NCBI RefSeq assembly: GCF_054482595.1
Contig: NZ_CM137008.1
DNA: 64,000 nucleotides
Reading direction: 5' to 3' (one strand)
Each line of letters opens with the position of its first letter. Within the stretch, counting starts at the first letter, position 1. Shown piece after piece: positions 10,642 through 18,642 of this stretch. The position numbers and the translations under genes are program-made. A model generated the notes under the pieces. That model was not told where the DNA came from and made no database searches. It saw nothing but the letters and a program-made list of their open reading frames with translations.

Positions 10642-10692
10642 ACTGTAGCAGTGTTGTATCTCGTATAAACAGGGAACTAAATATGCTGTTAA

Positions 10693-11574
10693 TCATGGGG
10701 CAGCATCATTAGGAGGGTATACATTGACCGATGTACTTACACGATGAAACTCTAGTATGTTGCCAGTATGGTGACCAGGGATAGCTTCAAACACCCCAAG
10801 AAATCGGTACAGTGTCCTGTTCAACTCATCACGAGAATGTGCCATAACAATTCGTTTATCCCAGCGTTCTGTGTATCCCTCATCATCCTTTATATTCCGC
10901 TCTATGATTTTGTTACCATCATCAGTCAATTCATTTCCCCAATCTGAATTTCCATATAGTTTTGGAAACCAAACCATGCATTTTCCTGATAGACCCATTG
11001 CTTCACTTATGTGAGAAGGAATGCTCCAACCGCCAGACTGATGATGTCCTTTGTTGTAACCGAAACAGTTCAAAGCATCCCGGTGGTATCTGAAGACGGC
11101 ATCTGGACCTACAGATATCCTTCCTGCCTTAAGATGAGGACGAGCTGTATATTTATTATCATAATCCCATTCTTTGAATTTTTTATCTTTAATCATTCTA
11201 TTTTTACGATTGCGTATCAACTCAATAAATTCATTGATATAACGATCGAAAATTTCAAGACTTATTTCGCTGGCGGGAATTCTTTTCTCTAAAAATCCTG
11301 TAACTTCAGTAATATCCATACGACGTTTCGCATCATCTATTTGTGATTGCTCACTGTTGTGATGCCCTTCATCAATTTCAAGATAAAGTTCCAGTTGTGG
11401 GAAAAATAAATCTGCCAAATAGATTTTTCCATTTTCTTTTCTGACACATTGCTGGCAGACAAATTCAATGTCGGGATCATTTAAAAGATGATAAATGCGA
11501 GTTACTGCATAATGTTCCCATCGTTTTTTTGAGGTTTTCGTAAGTGAACGTAGGATGTAATCAGTTTTATCCAT
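10693..11574 (-). CDS. Hypothetical protein, 293 aa, AT-rich, inside the satellite-like island
   Basis: Clean ORF; ELYLEIDEGHH and C-terminal KRIVMAH (Rx4H-like) motifs noted but no confident family assignment. Confidence 0.55.
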   Translation of the reverse strand: MDKTDYILRSLTKTSKKRWEHYAVTRIYHLLNDPDIEFVCQQCVRKENGKIYLADLFFPQLELYLEIDEGHHNSEQSQIDDAKRRMDITEVTGFLEKRIPASEISLEIFDRYINEFIELIRNRKNRMIKDKKFKEWDYDNKYTARPHLKAGRISVGPDAVFRYHRDALNCFGYNKGHHQSGGWSIPSHISEAMGLSGKCMVWFPKLYGNSDWGNELTDDGNKIIERNIKDDEGYTERWDKRIVMAHSRDELNRTLYRFLGVFEAIPGHHTGNILEFHRVSTSVNVYPPNDAAP

Positions 11575-11845
11575 TTATATGCCTTCCTTCTTTGTTCTTC
11601 ATGTAATGTGCTTTTTCTTATGGCGATAGTGTTACCTATCGCCATAAGATGCGTTAGTATTTTTTTAATCTAACTGTTTATACTGTTAACTTCGATGATT
11701 TTCTATTTTATATCATGTGGTTAAGCGGTGGTGAGTTGGTGAGGAGTGAAAAGTCGAATCTTCCCCTTTGTGATTTTTGCTCGTTCTGGATCTGCCCGGT
11801 CAGGCGATGTGGTGGGGGGGGGTAAAAAGTTTTTTTAGGTTTTAC

Positions 11846-11937
11846 TGTTCACACTGTTCACCTCTGGTTTTTTATTAATAATTTCATGGTGATACAGGGT
11901 GAAGATACGGTGAAGGGTGAACAGTGGATTGTTCACC
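11846..11937. repeat. Iteron cluster of TGTTCACC octamers in both orientations (P4 ori/crr-like alpha-binding repeats)
   Basis: Full octamers or close variants at 11846-11853, 11855-11862, 11916-11923 (GGTGAACA) and 11930-11937, plus partial GGTGAAG copies at about 11898 and 11909; the last two form a palindrome GGTGAACAgtggatTGTTCACC. Confidence 0.6.
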
Positions 11938-11989
11938 TTGTGGCAATGGCCAGAAAGGAAAAGACCGGCTGTTGCCGGTCTGAGTGAGG

Positions 11990-12565
11990 TTATGTTGCTA
12001 CGGGTTCGTCGCATTTCGGTAGCCAGTCGCCGTAGCTTTCCTCTTTCAGCGACAGATTGGTTTGTATCCCCTGCTTAGTGTGCCGCTTCTCATAATTCAG
12101 GCCGTACTCTTTCAGCATCATGGGCAGCCCCAGCCCGAACATTTTCAGGCTGAGTACGTTCCTATACCCGTTAGCCTCCATATAGGCCAGATACGCGTGA
12201 TAGAGATATTTACGATAATTACGCGGGATGATGCTGGCATTCCCCATAAACATCCCGTTGGTCTGCGGGAGCATTTCCAGATAGCCGCAAAAATCAAACG
12301 TAGGGTCAGCATCGCGCTTGATGCTGAGCGCCTCGTCGGAATTCTGCTGTGACTGGAGCAGTGCGCAGGCTGCCATCGGGTCGCTGAACTTCTGCATGAG
12401 CTGGCGCACAATCACGGCCAGCTCGCGCGCAATTTTATCCCTGAGCTGCGGGTCGCGTTCCTCCGGCGCAATTTGCTCCGGGAAGTGAATAATCACCCGG
12501 CGACGTGACACACCACCGCTGCGGTCGGTGAAGCGCATGGGGTTATTGTTCACTGCCAGAATCAC
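11990..12565 (-). pseudogene. Truncated primase/helicase (P4 alpha-like, D5/SF3 family) C-terminal remnant
   Basis: Frame stays open upstream to about 12670 without a start codon (…LKAITGGDAVSVDPKYQNPYSTHIPAVILAVNNNPMRFTDRSGGVSRRRVIIHF…); far shorter than an intact alpha (~770 aa). Confidence 0.5.
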
Positions 12566-12722
12566 CGCCGGAATGTGTGTTGAGTACGGGTTCTGGTATT
12601 TCGGGTCAACCGAGACCGCATCGCCGCCGGTGATGGCCTTAAGCCCTGCGCCGTCACCGCCGCCGCGTAAAGTACAGGGCTGCTACAGCTCGCCGTTCCG
12701 GCATTAATCAGGAGAGAGACTC

Positions 12723-13289
12723 GTGACCACTGTGACCATACAGCAGGCCTTTGAGGCCTGTCAGACGAACAAAAATACCTGGCTGAAACGTAAAGCCGAA
12801 CTGGCAGACCTTGAACGGGAATACCGTGAACAGCTCCTTGCCGGTGACGAACAAATCCCGCGCAGAATGCAGGATTTGCGCGACAATTTCGACGTGAAAA
12901 AATGGGAGATTAATCAGGCCGCCGGTCGTTATATCCGCTCACATGAGGAAGTGCAGCACATCAGCATCCGCAACCGGCTCCATGACTTTATGCAGTAGCA
13001 CGGCGCGGAGCTGGCCGCCACGCTGGCACCTGAGCTGATGGGGTATAACGAACAGCTTCCCGCAGTAAAACAGAGCGCCATGCAGCACTCGGTTGATTAT
13101 CTGCGTGAAGCCCTGTCGGTATGGCTGGCTGCAGGTGAAAAAATTAATTATTCCGCGCAGGACAGCGATATTTTAACGGCCATCGGATTCAGGCCTGATG
13201 CGGCCTCGCGGGATGATAATCGCCAGAAATTCACCCCGGCACAGAACCTGATTTACACCCGCCGACGTGCAGAACTGGCCGCACGGTAG
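12723..13289 (+). pseudogene. psu: psu-like (P4 polarity suppression protein) gene with one in-frame TAG at 12999..13001
   Basis: ORFs 12723..12998 and 13038..13289 are in the same frame separated by a single amber; N-terminus MTTVTIQQAFEACQTNKNTW resembles recalled P4 Psu; combined length 188 codons. Confidence 0.55.
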
Positions 13290-13690
13290 CACGCAAAAAA
13301 ATCCGCAAAATTCCGCTATTTTTTCCGAAAAAAGCCATGCATCCATAAGGTGCATGGTTTTTCATGCAAATCCCCGTATTTTATTTTCCTCACCGCGCCA
13401 GTACCGGCGCGGCCTGAGCCGGTTCATGCACCTGCATTAAAAGCGACCTCTTAAGCGGGCAGGCGTGGCGGGGAGAGCATTGCGCGCGGAGTGGGTGTTT
13501 TATTTTTTGTATGTCACATAAACTTAAGGTATGCAGTACGTAGCTAGTTTCACTAATACTGGGACGAAAAGAATGGTGCGTTTGTAAAAATGTATTTTAA
13601 TTTTTGGATTGTGATACAGAGTAAATTTCATTTAATTTTGTATTTTAATTGCGGTAAGCTATAACAAACTTGAAAAGGAATTATAATCAC

Positions 13691-15352
13691 ATGAGGTATG
13701 TTGAAAATATGAAAATTCTAGTAACTGCACCTTCAAGAAAAAATCACCCAAAAAATAATGTATTGTATGATTTTATATTGCAACAAGATGATTGGAATGA
13801 TTTTAGTTTTATCACTAAGTATCATTTATACATTACAACGAAACTTACTGGTCTTGATGAAATAGAGTATGCTGGGGTTGTTAAAATTATAAAAAAAGAT
13901 CAGTCTGAAGCTGATTACTACATGGTTGAAGAAGGCGAGTTTTCATATTTGAGTGACGAGTTTTGTTCTGTGGGACAATCTCTTGATTATTATGGGAGGC
14001 TCTCTGAATTGGGGAGTGAAATTTGTGAGGGGATATTGACATCATTACGCGACATTAATATGTTTGATTATGTTTCTGAGGGTTTCAAAAATGAAAGAGC
14101 TTGGGAACGTTCTATCATGAGAGACTTAAATAATGATGATGATATTTTTATTCTTCCAAAGTTTATAATAAAAAATCAGTTCTCGGCTATACCTAGTATA
14201 GACATGAAGTTTTCATTTATGTATTCAGGAATGATTAATACTCTTTCGTTTGATTTCGATTCAATACAATATGGATATTTTGAAAGTGAAAAACTACCAT
14301 GTAGAATGTCCGTAATTGTAGGCCGGAACGGTTGTGGGAAGAGTACAACATTGGCAAGACTTTCTAGGGTTGCTTATTCTTCAACTCAGGACAGAAAAAA
14401 AGAACAGATAGCCAAAATTGGTGAAATTCTTCCAGAGGGATTAGGTTTTCCGAAAATAATCAACCTTTCATACAGTGCTTTTGATAGTTTTCAAATACCC
14501 GGGTGTACTTTTAAAGAAAAGAAACAGCTAAGGCAAGACATACTTGATGGGAAAGGTAGGTATATATATTGCGGAGTCAGGGATGTTGGTGCTGAATTGG
14601 ATTATGTATTGGCTAATGTAGATGAAAACAATATGGATATAGAGTTTATTACATTAGATAGGCAAGAGAGAACCATATTAAAACCTCTTGAAGTACTTAG
14701 TGAAGAGTTTTATGGTGTCTTGATAAAAATACATAAAGATAGTGATAAGTGGAATTTGTTTAATAAAGTGATGATGAAGTTGAGAGAAGAGGTTTCATTA
14801 TCTGAAATTATTGATGAAATCTTTAAAGATGATTTTATTCTTAAATCTAAAGAATATTTTCATAGGTTGAGTACAGGGCATAAATTTGTTTTGCATTCGA
14901 TGGCGCATATTTTGTTGTATATTGAAAAAAGATGCCTTGTTTTATTTGATGAGCCTGAAACTCATTTGCACCCGCCATTGCTTGCGGTTTTAATGAGCGC
15001 TCTGAGAATTGTTTTGAACGAAGTCGATGCTTTTGCTATTGTTGCTACTCATTCACCTGTGGTAGTACAAGAAACATTAAGTAAAAATGTTAATGTTATA
15101 ACTAGAAATGGGGAGTTTACTGATTTTCAACGACCTGAAATTGAAACTTTTGGTGAGAATATTGGAGCAATAACATCATCAGTATTTTCATTAACGACTC
15201 AAATAACTGATTATCATGATGAATTAGACAAGCTAATAATAGAATATAAAAATAATAATAATCCATTAGATGACATTGAAAAATGTTTTGATACAGGTCT
15301 TAGTACACAAGCAAGGTCTTATGTAATATCTAAATTAGCGGTAAAAGGATAA
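13691..15352 (+). CDS. ABC-type (AAA_15/AAA_21-like, SMC/RecF/OLD superfamily) ATPase with ~190-aa N-terminal extension; PtuA-like candidate defence ATPase
   Basis: Walker A VGRNGCGKST, signature-like LSTGHK, Walker B LVLFDEPETHLHP, H-loop ATHSP. AAAGGAA SD before ATG 13691; alternative starts TTG 13670 and ATG 13709. Strongly AT-rich. Confidence 0.8.
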   Translation: MRYVENMKILVTAPSRKNHPKNNVLYDFILQQDDWNDFSFITKYHLYITTKLTGLDEIEYAGVVKIIKKDQSEADYYMVEEGEFSYLSDEFCSVGQSLDYYGRLSELGSEICEGILTSLRDINMFDYVSEGFKNERAWERSIMRDLNNDDDIFILPKFIIKNQFSAIPSIDMKFSFMYSGMINTLSFDFDSIQYGYFESEKLPCRMSVIVGRNGCGKSTTLARLSRVAYSSTQDRKKEQIAKIGEILPEGLGFPKIINLSYSAFDSFQIPGCTFKEKKQLRQDILDGKGRYIYCGVRDVGAELDYVLANVDENNMDIEFITLDRQERTILKPLEVLSEEFYGVLIKIHKDSDKWNLFNKVMMKLREEVSLSEIIDEIFKDDFILKSKEYFHRLSTGHKFVLHSMAHILLYIEKRCLVLFDEPETHLHPPLLAVLMSALRIVLNEVDAFAIVATHSPVVVQETLSKNVNVITRNGEFTDFQRPEIETFGENIGAITSSVFSLTTQITDYHDELDKLIIEYKNNNNPLDDIEKCFDTGLSTQARSYVISKLAVKG

Positions 15353-15357
15353 TACAT

Positions 15358-16203
15358 ATGTGGACACTACCTTTACCAGATGATGCGGATAGAATGAGCG
15401 AGTTATTAACCGCTTTAACGTATAAAAATGGAAATCCTAAGTATGCTTTAACACAAGATGAAAAGGATAAAATTGAAACTATTTATACTTTATATCACGA
15501 TCGTAAAGCAACTCCCTGTGCTGAATTTTTAGCAGAGGAAATAAGTGATGAAACCCAAAATGCTATAAAAACAGCTTATTCAGAAGTGCAAATAAATGGA
15601 CGGCTTTCAACCCTTCGCTCAAGGATTTTATTAAGTTCTAAAAAATGCCCATTATGTGGGATCGAATCATCAACCGACCTAGATCATTATCTTCCCGAAT
15701 CAATATATAAATGTCTCGCAGTATATTCAAGAAACCTGATACCGACCTGTCATAAGTGCAATAATAAAAAAAGAGCTGGTGTAGCAGAAAATGGAGTTGG
15801 ATTTATTCATGTGTATTATTTTGATGAGCCCGATGGTGTATTTTTCGTTGCCAATACTGAAATGATAGATGGTGCTTTAGTAATTGATTTTAATATCAAT
15901 ATGATCGAGGGTATGACTCGAGAGGTATATGATTCATTATGCTTTCAAAATAGAGTTGTTAACCTAAATGAAAGGTTAAAGATGGAAGCGAATGATTTTT
16001 TAGGGGGGCTCTATACTTCACTTGAAGAAACATATAATTCTGCAGGCCAAGAAGGATTAAGATTATTTCTAAAAAGAACTAGGGATGACTATACCAGACG
16101 TTATGGGCTTAATCATTGGAGAAGAGCATTGATAGATAGTCTATCCGATAATGTGGAGTTCCTTGACGCTGGTTTTATTACTGCCTTAGGAACTCCAGAG
16201 TGA
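15358..16203 (+). CDS. HNH endonuclease-fold protein, 281 aa; PtuB-like candidate defence nuclease
   Basis: HNH motif KKCPLCG…DLDHYLPES…N…CHKCNNKK; starts 5 nt after the ATPase stop with AAAGGA SD (translational coupling); ends 2 nt before the convergent integrase. Confidence 0.8.
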   Translation: MWTLPLPDDADRMSELLTALTYKNGNPKYALTQDEKDKIETIYTLYHDRKATPCAEFLAEEISDETQNAIKTAYSEVQINGRLSTLRSRILLSSKKCPLCGIESSTDLDHYLPESIYKCLAVYSRNLIPTCHKCNNKKRAGVAENGVGFIHVYYFDEPDGVFFVANTEMIDGALVIDFNINMIEGMTREVYDSLCFQNRVVNLNERLKMEANDFLGGLYTSLEETYNSAGQEGLRLFLKRTRDDYTRRYGLNHWRRALIDSLSDNVEFLDAGFITALGTPE

Positions 16204-16205
16204 GT

Positions 16206-17399
16206 TTACTGGTGGGGATGAATATGTCGTCCCCACCAATTCATCAATTCAATTCTTGCGTGTAAATATGTTGAGCGATTGTAGGCTTTTCGTACTTCAT
16301 TTCTATCTGAATGAGCAAGAGCAGCCTCAATTACATCAGCATTAAAACCGGCTTCATTCATTGCCGTACTTGCAATCGAACGTAAACCATGTGCAACCAA
16401 TTTCCCACCATAACCTATTCGCTTAAGTGCAGCATTGGCAGTTTGGCTATTCATAGGTTGTTTTGGATTATTTCTGCTGGGAAAAACATGTTCTCGATGT
16501 GCACTAATAGGTTTCATCACATCCAGAATTTCTAATGCTTGTGGTGATAAAGGAACAATGTGTTCACGCTTAGCCTTCATTCGTTCGGCGGGAATCGTCC
16601 AGAGTTTGGCATTGAGATCGATCTCTACCCACCGAGCACCAGAAGCCTCAGAAGGGCGCACTAGGGTCAGAAGCTGCCATTCAATAAGACAGCGAGTCGG
16701 AACAGACAGATTCGACATGACCAGGGAACGCATAAGCTTAGGTAATTCTTCTGGCCGTAGCGTGGGCATATTTTGCTTTTTGGGTTTCTCAAAAGCCATT
16801 CCTACACCCGAAGCCGGGTTGGCATCTATCAGACCGGTATTAACCGCATAAATCATTATTTCGTTAATACGCTGAACTAGGCGACGAACCGTCTCTAATG
16901 CGCCACGTGCTTTGATTGGCTCCAATGCTTCAACAATCGTTCTGGCCTTTATATCCTGAACGGGCATCGCACCGATTGCCGGGAACACGTCTTTATCCAA
17001 AGAACGCCAAATATCCTTTGCATAATCCTCTGTGACACTTCTGCTTTTAATCTGGAACCAGTTAGCGGCCACAGTTGAGAAAATGCTGTCTAACTCAATC
17101 TGGCGTTGTGCTGACGCTTGCTCCTGTTGCTGTTGTGGATCCATGCCTTGCGCGAGCGTGGTTAAGTGCTGGTCGCGTATCTGACGAGCTGCTGCGAGTG
17201 TAAGGGCAGGGTATGAGCCGAGACTCAAATTTGTGCGGCTGCTGCTTCCCGGTCGTTGATAACGGAAGCGTCAGAGTTTTTTACCGGAGGTTTTGACGAG
17301 TAAGAACAGGCCATCACCATCATGCAGGGTGAAGTCTTTTTCGCGGGGTTTCGCTTTGAGGATTTCGTTGTTAGTGAGGGGGCGTGTAATGCGCGCCAT
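16206..17399 (-). pseudogene. intA: P4-family tyrosine integrase (intA-like) interrupted by an in-frame TGA after codon 42
   Basis: N-terminus MARITRPLTNNEILKAKPREKDFTLHDGDGLFLLVKTSGKKL, then TGA (complement 17271..17273), then the same frame continues RFRYQRPGSSSRTNLSLGSYPALT… into the 340-aa ORF. Confidence 0.8.
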
Positions 17400-17449
17400 G
17401 TCTGGATCCCTTCCATAATTGGTACACGTTTAATGGACCACAGTATAGC

Positions 17450-17477
17450 GTGTACCTAAACGTGTACCAATTTTCTC
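17450..17477. repeat. 28-bp direct repeat, right copy (between integrase and ssrA)
   Basis: Identical to 10614..10641. Confidence 0.8.
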
Positions 17478-17513
17478 TGGATTTAGCCGGATGTTCTCGG
17501 ACAACGACAGACA

Positions 17514-17549
17514 CAAAAAAGCCCGCAGGGCTTGTGCCGTGCGGGCTTT
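17514..17549 (-). terminator. Rho-independent terminator downstream of ssrA
   Basis: Minus-strand GCCCGC…GCGGGC stem followed by TTTTTT. Confidence 0.7.
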
Positions 17550-17582
17550 CTGTACTTCACCGGACGTATCCGGATCATCATT

Positions 17583-17945
17583 TGGTGGAGCTGGCGGGAG
17601 TTGAACCCGCGTCCGAAATTCCTACGTCCTCGGTACTACATGCTTAGTCAGTCTTTACATTCGCTTGCCAGCTGCGGACGGACACGCCACTAACAAACTA
17701 GCCTGATTAAGTTTTAACGCTTCAACCCCAGGCAGGGCCTCCACGCGATCTCTTTTGGGTTTGACCTCTCTTGATCCCCGTCCTAAGAGCGGAGGCTAGG
17801 GAGAGAGGGCTCTAAGCAGGTTATTAAGCTGCTAAAGCGTAGTTTTCGTCGTTTGCGACTATTTTTTGCGGCTTTTTACGAGGCCAACCGCCCCTCGGCA
17901 TGCACCTTGGGTTTCGCAAATCCCGTCGAATCCAGAATCAGCCCC
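17583..17945 (-). ncRNA. ssrA: tmRNA (SsrA), 363 nt
   Basis: Reverse complement begins GGGGCTGATTCTGGATTCGACGGG and ends …GGTTCAACTCCCGCCAGCTCCACCA, with the tag-coding region between. Confidence 0.95.
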
Positions 17946-18159
17946 AATGTGTAAAGGTAAGTATACCAGATTTATGAGCGCCATGACCAGCCTCAATGGC
18001 GTTATCGTTAAAGATTTAGCGACCATGTAGCCTGATTTTTATTCGATTTAGCAATGGGATGGCAACATTTTCGTCGGATGTGATAGCCAATAAGATGTTC
18101 ATTCGCGCCGCCGGAGAGGGAGGCGCGGTGAGGAACTGGTCAATAATTGGAGTGCAGGT

Positions 18160-18642
18160 TTAACGGTGAGCGTTTTTCATGATACGCGCTTTATCCACCT
18201 GCCATTCGCGTTCTTTGATATCTGAACGTTTATCGTGCTGTTTCTTACCTTTGGCGACGCCGATTTTCACTTTGCACCAGGCATTTTTCCAGTACAGGGA
18301 GAGCGCCACTACGGTATAGCCTTCTCGATTGACGCGACCGTACAATGAGTCCAGTTCGCGCTGGTTGAGAAGTAACTTGCGGGTACGGGTAGGATCGCAC
18401 ACCACATGCGTGGAGGCCACGGCCATTGGCGTGATGTTAGCGCCAAACAGAAATGCCTCTCCGTCACGCAGAAGGACGTAGCTGTCGCTGATATTGGCTT
18501 TTCCTGCGCGCAGGGATTTAACCTCCCAGCCTTGCAGGGCAAGTCCCGCTTCGAACTCTTCTTCGATAAAGTATTCGTGACGGGCGCGCTTGTTAAGCGC
18601 GATGGTCGCTGAACCAGGTTTATGTGCTTTTTTCTTCGTCAT
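18160..18642 (-). CDS. smpB: SsrA-binding protein SmpB
   Basis: 160-aa product [29 protein letters not shown]…; adjacent to ssrA. Confidence 0.95.

What the first reader, a model, noticed from the sequence alone, without database searches (positions are those of the whole stretch)
11990..12670. Alpha-like primase/helicase reduced to a C-terminal fragment without a start codon
The minus-strand frame is open from about 12670 to 11990 but lacks an initiator and the expected N-terminal primase domain. The region where sid/delta/epsilon/cI-type genes would sit is also absent. Together with the int and psu nonsense codons this points to a decayed satellite that mainly retains its cargo.
Basis: inference. 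Interest (0 to 1): 0.35.

Follow-up and report, generated by a model that had tools for sequence, protein, structure and literature searches.

The report
Truncated P4 satellite replication gene remnant
This is the dead tail end of a phage-satellite replication gene, left when a 4.4-kb deletion gutted a P4-like element next to the E. coli ssrA gene; it is an ordinary pseudogene that public annotation already flags, sitting between intact anti-phage genes.

Summary
On the minus strand a frame is open from 12682 to 11993, with its stop at 11992-11990. Bases 12658-11990 encode residues 556-777 of a 777-residue P4-type alpha primase-helicase: 97% amino-acid identity to an intact E. coli copy, 89% to phage P4 alpha, and E=1e-61 to the solved P4 origin-binding domain 1KA8.

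The zinc ribbon, Toprim primase, D5_N and Walker A/B motifs are gone. No start codon lies at the 5' end of the frame.

Comparison with an intact element at the same site shows one ~4.4-kb gap, joined at a 4-bp microhomology (CACC, 12655-12658). The gap removes the alpha N-terminus, an orf106 homologue, the Icd-like and HTH genes, the CI/C4 immunity RNA, isrK, the region that holds ori in P4, sid and most of delta. psu and int each carry one nonsense substitution.

Still present are crr iterons, a cos-like site, 28-bp flanking repeats and two full-length defence modules (a Septu-like PDC-M01 pair and a PvuRts1I/AbaSI-like enzyme).

RefSeq annotates the identical sequence as an N-terminally incomplete pseudogene in at least one carrier. 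Fifteen complete genomes carry the allele; at least 14 belong to one clonal lineage. Defective P4 elements that keep their defence genes are already described.

Verdict: real, correctly interpreted, ordinary.

The parts
11990..12658 (-). 3' fragment of the P4-type alpha (primase-helicase) gene: codons 556-777 plus the stop. It keeps SF3 helicase motif C (AVILAVNNN) and the complete C-terminal winged-helix origin-binding domain. It lacks the zinc ribbon, Toprim, D5_N, Walker A (GPGGSGKS, 501-508) and Walker B (LIRLPDQE).
   Evidence: the PGAP pseudogene has the same coordinates in an identical genome
12659..12682 (-). Eight further open codons (QPCTLRGG) upstream of the junction. They are antisense to the delta 3' end, are not alpha sequence and contain no start codon.
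12655..12658 (.). Deletion junction with 4-bp microhomology CACC, shared by the alpha-side and delta-side sequences of the intact relative (L002 9955 and L002 14357).
12655..12707 (+). Last ~53 nt of the delta (STY4826-family late activator) gene, including its stop. The rest of delta is deleted.
12723..13289 (+). psu pseudogene with a single nonsense substitution, Q92 CAG>TAG, at 12996-12998. Its native upstream promoter region was removed by the deletion.
11962..11981 (-). Terminator-like hairpin just after the alpha stop. P4 has its annotated t-alpha terminator in the same position.
11672..11938 (.). crr-like cis replication region. Two ~100-115-bp repeats (11672-11767 and 11824-11938) align to the P4 crr 120-bp repeats. 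TGTTCACC-type iterons lie at 11846, 11855, 11898, 11916 and 11930.
13462..13480 (+). cos-like 19-mer GGCGTGGCGGGGAGAGCAT, matching 16 of 19 positions of the P4 cohesive end. The flanking alignment runs across the P4 end-to-end junction.
10693..11574 (-). Intact cargo gene between attR and crr: a PvuRts1I/AbaSI-family modification-dependent restriction endonuclease (PADLOC mREase_II, full-length match).
13670..16203 (+). Intact two-gene cargo in the psu-int hotspot. It comprises an AAA ATPase (PGAP start 13691, end 15352) and an HNH protein (15358-16203), matching PADLOC PDC-M01A/B, which is Septu (PtuA/PtuB)-like.
16206..17399 (-). P4-type integrase pseudogene with a single nonsense substitution, W43 TGG>TGA, at 17273-17271.
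10614..10641 (+). 28-bp direct repeat (attR-like), GTGTACCTAAACGTGTACCAATTTTCTC, bounding the element on the alpha side.
17450..17477 (+). Identical 28-bp direct repeat (attL-like), 50 bp upstream of the int start and 105 bp from the 3' end of ssrA.

Best explanation
The interval is a non-functional 3' remnant of the alpha primase-helicase gene of a P4-like satellite. The satellite is integrated at a 28-bp att site just downstream of ssrA in E. coli.

Shown: relative to an intact element at the same site, ~4.4 kb is missing between alpha codon 555/556 and the last 53 nt of delta. The two ends are joined at a 4-bp microhomology (CACC). The missing DNA held:
- the alpha zinc ribbon, Toprim primase and helicase Walker A/B motifs;
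- an orf106 homologue (DUF5375), the Icd-like gene and the HTH regulator;
- the CI/C4 immunity RNA with its targets, and isrK;
- the HTH-sid intergenic region, which holds ori in P4;
- sid and most of delta.

Inferred: the gap arose as one illegitimate-recombination deletion. Because alpha and sid-delta-psu are transcribed divergently from that central region, both operons lost their promoters. The alpha remnant is therefore neither transcribed from a native promoter nor given a proper start. Promoterless psu and then int drifted, each acquiring one nonsense substitution.

The element can no longer replicate, repress, derepress a helper, resize capsids or excise. It is inherited vertically in one E. 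coli lineage. What remains intact are two self-contained defence modules: a Septu-like PDC-M01 pair in the psu-int hotspot, and a PvuRts1I/AbaSI-like endonuclease between alpha and att. These are presumably what selection now maintains.
For: Identity of the fragment:
- 97% amino-acid identity to residues 556-777 of an intact 777-aa alpha.
- 89% identity to P4 alpha.
- E=1.1e-61 to PDB 1KA8, matching all 100 residues of that chain.
- In Pfam, the intact relative has Zn_Ribbon_Prim, Toprim_3, D5_N, DUF5906 and Pox_D5. The fragment has only Pox_D5 and the tail of DUF5906.
- Walker A 501-508 and Walker B both lie upstream of the breakpoint.

The junction and what is missing:
- The breakpoints map to L002 9955 and 14357, with shared CACC.
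- The genes inside the gap are listed in the intact relative's annotation.
- C4 and isrK are found in P4 and in the relative but not here.
- P4 ori lies in the corresponding interval between ORF88 and sid.

Decay of the neighbours: the psu and int nonsense codons are each a single-base change relative to the intact relative.

Public annotation and distribution:
- PGAP annotates the identical sequence as 'incomplete; missing N-terminus', and psu and int as 'internal stop'.
- The same 6.9-kb structure occurs at 99.9-100% identity in 15 independently assembled complete genomes.
- 14 of those genomes are also the 14 best matches (>=99.9%) for 22 kb of flanking chromosome. The next genome is at 99.5%.

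Cargo and selection:
- The cargo genes match defence profiles end to end.
- dN/dS of 0.046 against the intact relative shows no accumulated damage in the fragment, consistent with a recent deletion.

Independent alpha C-terminal remnants from other internal deletions exist in strains SRY157 and CX21.
Against: - Nothing contradicts the pseudogene reading, but non-expression is inferred, not measured.
- An internal GTG at 12553 has an SD-like GGTGAT 7 nt upstream (-6.3 kcal/mol). A promoter-like site lies at 12764-12735 on the minus strand, although such sites are no more frequent here than in shuffled sequence.
- The 223 retained codons carry no stop or frameshift, so a 187-191-aa product is not formally excluded.
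- A single deletion event is the simplest reading. No intact progenitor with the same cargo was found among 5,426 genomes, so several successive events cannot be ruled out.
Confidence: 0.95

Rival explanations
1. The fragment is a domesticated, expressed short protein of ~187-191 aa, translated from an internal GTG. It would consist of the alpha origin-binding winged-helix domain. By binding TGTTCACC iterons at the ori/crr of incoming P4-like satellites, or the retained local crr, it would act as a dominant-negative or exclusion factor.
For: - The complete DNA-binding domain is retained without a single disabling mutation.
- The crr iterons are retained next to it.
- GTG 12553 has an SD-like GGTGAT upstream, with pairing energy in the range of real genes.
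- A 9/12 promoter-like site lies upstream at 12764-12735.
Against: - The SD-like motif and GTG also encode part of the conserved PAVILAV motif, identical in the protein sequence of P4 and the intact relative, so they are not a new feature.
- Promoter-like sites are no more frequent than in shuffles: 2 found against 2.7 expected.
- The neighbouring psu and int are decaying.
- All 15 copies are 99.9-100% identical, so there is no signal of selection after the deletion.
- Alpha sits at the end of the element, so C-terminal remnants are the expected by-product of internal deletions. They recur with different breakpoints: 245 aa in SRY157 and 68 aa in CX21.
- In a spread sample of 60 E. coli hits, 56 are full-length alpha.
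Confidence: 0.03
2. The structure arose in several steps rather than by one deletion. Examples are successive smaller deletions, or a recombinational swap with another P4-like element.
For: - No direct progenitor with the same cargo and an intact core was found.
- P4 hotspots are reported to recombine intensely (bioRxiv 10.64898/2026.02.27.708500).
- One mismatch lies next to the junction on the delta side.
Against: - Both flanks align collinearly at 94-96% identity with the same intact relative, right up to a single clean junction with 4-bp microhomology and no filler DNA.
- One event is the most parsimonious reading.
Confidence: 0.1
3. The truncation is an assembly or sequencing artefact.
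For: None found.
Against: The same junction is present at 99.9-100% identity in 15 complete genomes from different laboratories, hosts and sources.
Confidence: 0.005
4. The ORF is a complete small protein of a family unrelated to alpha.
For: PGAP uses the name 'primase-like DNA-binding domain-containing protein', which could suggest a stand-alone family.
Against: - The nucleotide alignment with full-length alpha genes is collinear at 93.7% and stops abruptly at codon 556.
- The helicase profile DUF5906 is cut mid-domain at profile position 69 of 114.
- PGAP itself flags the feature as an incomplete pseudogene.
Confidence: 0.005

Closest known systems
Phage P4 gp-alpha (777-aa primase / SF3 helicase / origin-binding protein; X51522 4636-6969)
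   Same: The fragment is 89% identical to the P4 alpha C-terminus. It covers all 100 residues of the solved origin-binding domain 1KA8. It is followed by a terminator-like hairpin and crr-like iterons, as in P4.
   Different: Only residues 556-777 remain. The zinc ribbon, Toprim primase, D5_N and Walker A/B motifs are deleted, and there is no start codon at the 5' end of the frame or native promoter.
Intact P4-like satellite at the same att site in E. coli MARGA_3 (NZ_CM170101.1)
   Same: It shares the 28-bp att sequence (full length beside int, first 23 bp at the alpha end) and lies between ypjA and ssrA. Identity is 94-96% in alpha-3'/crr and in delta-3'/psu/cos, and the gene order is the same.
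   Different: MARGA_3 keeps the 4.4-kb core: full alpha, DUF5375, Icd-like, HTH, C4 RNA, isrK, sid and delta. It carries different cargo (ATP-dependent nuclease plus helicase) and has no gene between att and crr.
Defective P4-like elements with conserved defence genes (described in bioRxiv 10.64898/2026.02.27.708500), and the Type B/C or decaying P4-like sets of de Sousa and Rocha (PMC8628076)
   Same: Core mobility and replication genes are present only as pseudogenes or fragments, while the adjacent defence genes are intact. The cargo sits in the int-psu hotspot and in the minor primase-att hotspot reported there.
   Different: Here at most 3 of the 7 core components are recognisable, and none is intact. 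That is fewer than the 5 of 7 required even for Type C, so standard satellite finders would probably not call the element.
Other alpha C-terminal remnants in E. coli (SRY157 at the pao locus; CX21 at tRNA-Sec)
   Same: These are N-terminally truncated alpha pseudogenes created by internal deletions of P4-like elements.
   Different: The breakpoints and partners differ: epsilon-alpha in SRY157, and int fused to the last ~68 codons in CX21. They are independent events.

Membership tests
P4 alpha-type primase-helicase (functional gene) | N-terminal zinc-ribbon primase-helicase domain (Pfam Zn_Ribbon_Prim) | tested here: not met
   Present at residues 31-66 of the intact relative and absent from the fragment.
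P4 alpha-type primase-helicase (functional gene) | Toprim primase catalytic domain | tested here: not met
   Toprim_3 spans 210-300 in the intact relative and is absent from the fragment.
P4 alpha-type primase-helicase (functional gene) | SF3 helicase P-loop (Walker A GPGGSGKS and Walker B) | tested here: not met
   Walker A at 501-508 and LIRLPDQE at ~545-552 lie upstream of breakpoint residue 556. Only DUF5906 profile positions 69-114 remain, below the gathering score.
P4 alpha-type primase-helicase (functional gene) | C-terminal winged-helix origin/crr-binding domain | tested here: met
   PDB 1KA8 at E=1.1e-61 over all 100 residues; Pox_D5 at E=2.5e-17 over the full profile.
P4 alpha-type primase-helicase (functional gene) | Initiation codon with ribosome-binding site at the 5' end, and an upstream promoter (PLE/PLL operon) | tested here: not met
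   No ATG/GTG/TTG in the 8 codons between the upstream stop and the junction. The promoter region is deleted. Only internal starts remain.
P4-like satellite (seven core components of de Sousa and Rocha: int, psu, delta, sid, alpA, epsilon, alpha) | At least 5 of 7 core components present | tested here: not met
   Only int (nonsense), psu (nonsense) and a 222-codon alpha fragment are recognisable, plus 53 nt of delta. sid and the central regulatory genes are absent. The criterion comes from PMC8628076.
P4-like satellite (descent, not function) | P4 gene order att-int-[cargo]-cos-psu...alpha-crr-att, with nucleotide homology to P4 | tested here: met
   blastn against P4 matches alpha-3'/crr at 84%, psu at 73% and cos at 76%. 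A 28-bp direct repeat lies at both ends.
P4-like satellite (functional) | CI/C4 immunity RNA and ori1 | tested here: not met
   Rfam C4 and isrK match P4 and the intact relative but not window 10000-18200. Within the element, TGTTCACC iterons occur only in the crr region.
P4-like satellite (functional) | Excision, replication and packaging on helper infection | not testable with these tools
   Needs an experiment. Failure is predicted from the int nonsense codon, the loss of alpha and ori, and the loss of sid and delta.
Septu-like PDC-M01 defence pair (cargo, context only) | Adjacent AAA ATPase and HNH nuclease matching the PtuA/PtuB-type profiles over full length | tested here: met
   PDC-M01A at E=1.3e-99 (residues 14-553 of 560), PtuA at E=1.3e-73, PDC-M01B at E=2.6e-37 and PtuB at E=1.8e-08. 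Anti-phage activity was not tested.

The most novel reading that the evidence does not exclude
The retained alpha C-terminal origin-binding domain is translated from the internal GTG at 12553, which has an SD-like GGTGAT upstream. Together with the adjacent crr iterons, it would act as a decoy or dominant-negative that blocks replication of incoming P4-like satellites. The remnant would then be a satellite-exclusion factor rather than dead DNA.
Probability: 0.03. Interest if true: 0.5.

Novelty: already known. Interest (0 to 1): 0.08.

Why it matters
On its own it matters little. It is a correctly recognised pseudogene that RefSeq already flags, and it belongs to a described class: defective P4-like satellites that keep intact defence cargo.

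Its modest value is as a cleanly resolved example. The breakpoint is mapped to the base. One deletion accounts for the loss of replication, immunity, helper manipulation and both promoters. Single nonsense changes followed in psu and int. Two defence modules stayed full length and are inherited vertically in one E. coli lineage.

That is useful for annotation: such loci should be read as fixed defence islands of satellite origin. It also illustrates how mobile defence carriers become immobilised.

Tried and rejected
- **att site as a repeat of ssrA.** I expected a repeat of the ssrA 3' end. Instead the only flanking repeat is a 28-bp sequence 105 bp beyond ssrA. The intact relative has the full 28-bp sequence beside int and its first 23 bp at the alpha end.
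- **Intact progenitor.** I looked for an intact element carrying the same cargo to date the deletion. None exists among 5,426 complete E. coli genomes; all 15 carriers have the deletion.
- **Promoter scan.** The scan of 11600-13700 found 2 sites against 2.7 expected by chance. It gives no support for expression.
- **Shine-Dalgarno scan.** The scan of every in-frame start found one SD-like site, at GTG 12553. I judged it a by-product of the conserved PAVILAV coding sequence rather than evidence of a gene, but kept it as the basis of the low-probability novel reading.
- **dN/dS.** A value of 0.046 against the intact relative reflects divergence between functional alleles before the deletion. It says nothing about selection afterwards, because the 15 copies are identical.
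- **Literature.** A search for the classic P4 alpha domain papers found nothing usable in the held library. Statements about alpha domain functions therefore rest on the X51522 feature table, the PDB entry name and general knowledge.
- **Not run.** I did not run the large protein-database searches, structure prediction or metagenome scans, because the sequence-level answer was already unambiguous.

Full report
**Observation**

On the minus strand, the frame containing the finding is open from 12682 to 11993 (230 codons). Its stop is at 11992-11990, and an in-frame TAG lies at 12685-12683.

The eight codons between the upstream stop and position 12658 (QPCTLRGG) contain no ATG, GTG or TTG. The frame does contain internal candidates. 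The ORF listing reports a 191-aa ORF from GTG 12565. A scan of all in-frame starts for pairing with the 16S anti-Shine-Dalgarno sequence found one respectable site: GGTGAT lies 7 nt upstream of GTG 12553, at -6.3 kcal/mol. Real genes nearby score -5.4 to -7.9.

**What the fragment is**

- BLASTP against an intact 777-aa protein from E. coli MARGA_3 gives 219/225 identities over residues 553-777, E=2e-164.
- tblastn against phage genomes gives 89% identity to P4 alpha at X51522 4651-5325.
- phmmer against the PDB matches all 100 residues of 1KA8, deposited as 'putative P4-specific DNA primase', at E=1.1e-61. From general knowledge, this is the winged-helix origin-binding domain.
- In Pfam, the intact relative has Zn_Ribbon_Prim (31-66), Toprim_3 (210-300), D5_N (374-467), DUF5906 (500-608) and Pox_D5 (670-768). 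The fragment has only a full Pox_D5 plus the last 46 positions of DUF5906, below threshold.
- In the intact proteins, Walker A (GPGGSGKS, 501-508) and the LIRLPDQE Walker B segment lie just upstream of the breakpoint. Only motif C (AVILAVNNN) and the DNA-binding domain survive.

The fragment is thus residues 556-777 of alpha, or 29% of the protein.

**How it arose**

blastn of window 10301-17700 against the MARGA_3 locus gives two collinear blocks. Window 11660-12658 matches L002 8960-9955 (93.7%; crr plus the alpha 3' end). Window 12655-13486 matches L002 14357-15189 (95.7%; delta 3' end, psu and cos).

The blocks overlap by 4 bp, CACC, which is present on both sides in the relative. There is no filler DNA. 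About 4.4 kb is therefore missing.

According to the relative's annotation, the gap held:
- alpha codons 1-555;
- a DUF5375 gene (the P4 orf106 position) and a small ORF;
- an Icd-like gene and an HTH regulator;
- the divergent promoter region;
- the sid-position 'capsid protein' and all but 53 nt of delta.

Rfam finds C4 antisense RNA (the P4 CI immunity RNA family), its a1b1 targets (in the relative) and isrK in P4 and the relative. In window 10000-18200 it finds only tmRNA. In P4 the annotated ori lies between ORF88 and sid, inside the corresponding interval. A clean junction at short microhomology is the signature of illegitimate recombination. That it was a single event is inference.

**The rest of the element**

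An exact 28-bp direct repeat, GTGTACCTAAACGTGTACCAATTTTCTC, lies at 10614-10641 and at 17450-17477. The full 28-bp sequence lies beside int in the intact MARGA_3 element, and its first 23 bp recur at the alpha end. The element is therefore 10614-17477, about 6.9 kb, and ends 105 bp from the 3' end of ssrA (tmRNA 17583-17945).

Retained cis sites:
- a terminator-like hairpin after alpha, at 11981-11962;
- crr-like repeats with TGTTCACC iterons, 11672-11938;
- a cos-like 19-mer at 13462-13480, matching P4 at 16 of 19 positions.

Against the intact relative, psu differs by Q92 CAG>TAG (12996-12998) and int by W43 TGG>TGA (17273-17271), each a single base change. Alpha and sid-delta-psu are transcribed divergently from the deleted centre. 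Both remnants have therefore lost their native promoters, which makes later drift of psu unsurprising (inference).

**Cargo**

The psu-int hotspot holds an AAA ATPase and an HNH protein. They match PADLOC PDC-M01A (E=1.3e-99) and PDC-M01B (E=2.6e-37) over full length, with PtuA and PtuB of Septu as the next relatives.

Between attR and crr sits a PvuRts1I/AbaSI-family enzyme: PADLOC mREase_II at E=4e-122, with Pfam PvuRts1I-like_N and SRA domains. MARGA_3 has only ~93 bp at that position.

**Distribution**

The 6.9-kb structure occurs at 99.9-100% identity in 15 of 5,426 complete E. coli genomes. No genome has this cargo with an intact core. In strain THO-010, RefSeq/PGAP annotates bases corresponding to window 11990-12658 as a pseudogene: 'primase-like DNA-binding domain-containing protein, incomplete, missing N-terminus'. 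It flags psu and int as 'internal stop'.

Fourteen of the 15 carriers are also the 14 best matches (>=99.9%) to 22 kb of adjacent chromosome. The next genome drops to 99.5%. The allele is therefore vertically inherited in one lineage, found in human, pig, poultry and water isolates.

In a spread sample of 60 of 1,093 genomes matching the fragment, 56 carry a full-length alpha. The two other truncated cases inspected have different breakpoints: epsilon-alpha in SRY157, and int fused to the last ~68 codons in CX21. Alpha lies at the end of the element, so internal deletions naturally leave its 3' end behind.

**Mechanism and rivals**

The best explanation (about 0.95) is a dead remnant of a one-step internal deletion. 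That deletion abolished satellite replication, immunity, helper manipulation and late gene control. Nonsense decay of psu and int followed, while the self-contained defence genes persisted.

The only rival with biological content is that an internal-start product carrying the origin-binding domain is made and interferes with incoming P4-like replication (about 0.03). Several points argue against it:
- The SD-like GGTGAT and GTG encode part of the conserved PAVILAV motif, identical in the intact proteins, and are not new.
- Promoter-like sites are at chance level.
- The neighbours are decaying.
- The 15 identical copies give no test of selection after the deletion.
- The dN/dS of 0.046 against the intact relative reflects divergence before the deletion.

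Multi-step origin cannot be excluded but is less parsimonious. Assembly artefact and 'unrelated small protein' are refuted.

**Comparison with what is known, and verdict**

The fragment descends from P4-type alpha but fails every defining feature of a functional member except the C-terminal DNA-binding domain. The element descends from a P4-like satellite but has none of the seven core components intact. That is fewer than the 5 of 7 required even for 'Type C' in PMC8628076.

Defective P4 elements with pseudogenised mobility genes and near-identical, probably functional, defence genes are explicitly described in the 2026 preprint. Interest is about 0.08.

Noticed in passing
window 10642-11660 (gene 10693-11574, minus strand): A full-length PvuRts1I/AbaSI-family modification-dependent restriction endonuclease sits inside the element between the attR-like repeat and crr. 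The intact relative has only ~93 bp there. This matches the minor 'primase-att' P4 defence hotspot reported in a 2026 preprint.
   Followed up: partly
window 10614-10641 and 17450-17477: The element's flanking 28-bp direct repeat is not part of ssrA. It lies 105 bp beyond the tmRNA 3' end, past two hairpin/terminator-like sequences. This P4-like family therefore uses an intergenic att site next to ssrA rather than the ssrA 3' end itself.
   Followed up: partly
between window ~17480 and 17950 in related genomes (XH990, GF66.1, W619, DETEC-C31, 2824): In 5 of the 15 carrier genomes the remnant and the chromosomal flank beyond ssrA are 32-45 kb further apart than in the window (coordinates). This implies an extra insertion, probably a prophage, at or near the ssrA 3' end. 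MARGA_3 likewise has a second integrase and a CI repressor beyond the P4-like int. Whether it is a P2-type helper was not checked.
   Followed up: no
window 2593-2668 (+): ARAGORN calls this tRNA-Met (CAT). PGAP annotates a tRNA-Ile in the corresponding flank of the relative MARGA_3, upstream of ypjCB, so this is probably the CAT-anticodon tRNA-Ile2 (ileY-type).
   Followed up: no
window 5679-10382 (+): A large YpjA/EhaD adhesin-like autotransporter is intact here (PGAP 4,575 nt). In the relative MARGA_3 it is split by an IS3 insertion and further truncated.
   Followed up: no
window 5233-5400 (+), from L001 1534-1701: A short 'recombinase family protein' pseudogene fragment, missing both ends, lies upstream of ypjA. 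It is a sign of an older degraded element on the far side of the autotransporter.
   Followed up: no
window 13462-13480: The cos-like site differs from the P2/P4 cohesive-end sequence at 3 of 19 positions (GGCGTGGCGGGGAGAGCAT against GGCGAGGCGGGGAAAGCAC). This may reflect adaptation to a different P2-like helper or simple drift. It was not compared across relatives.
   Followed up: no
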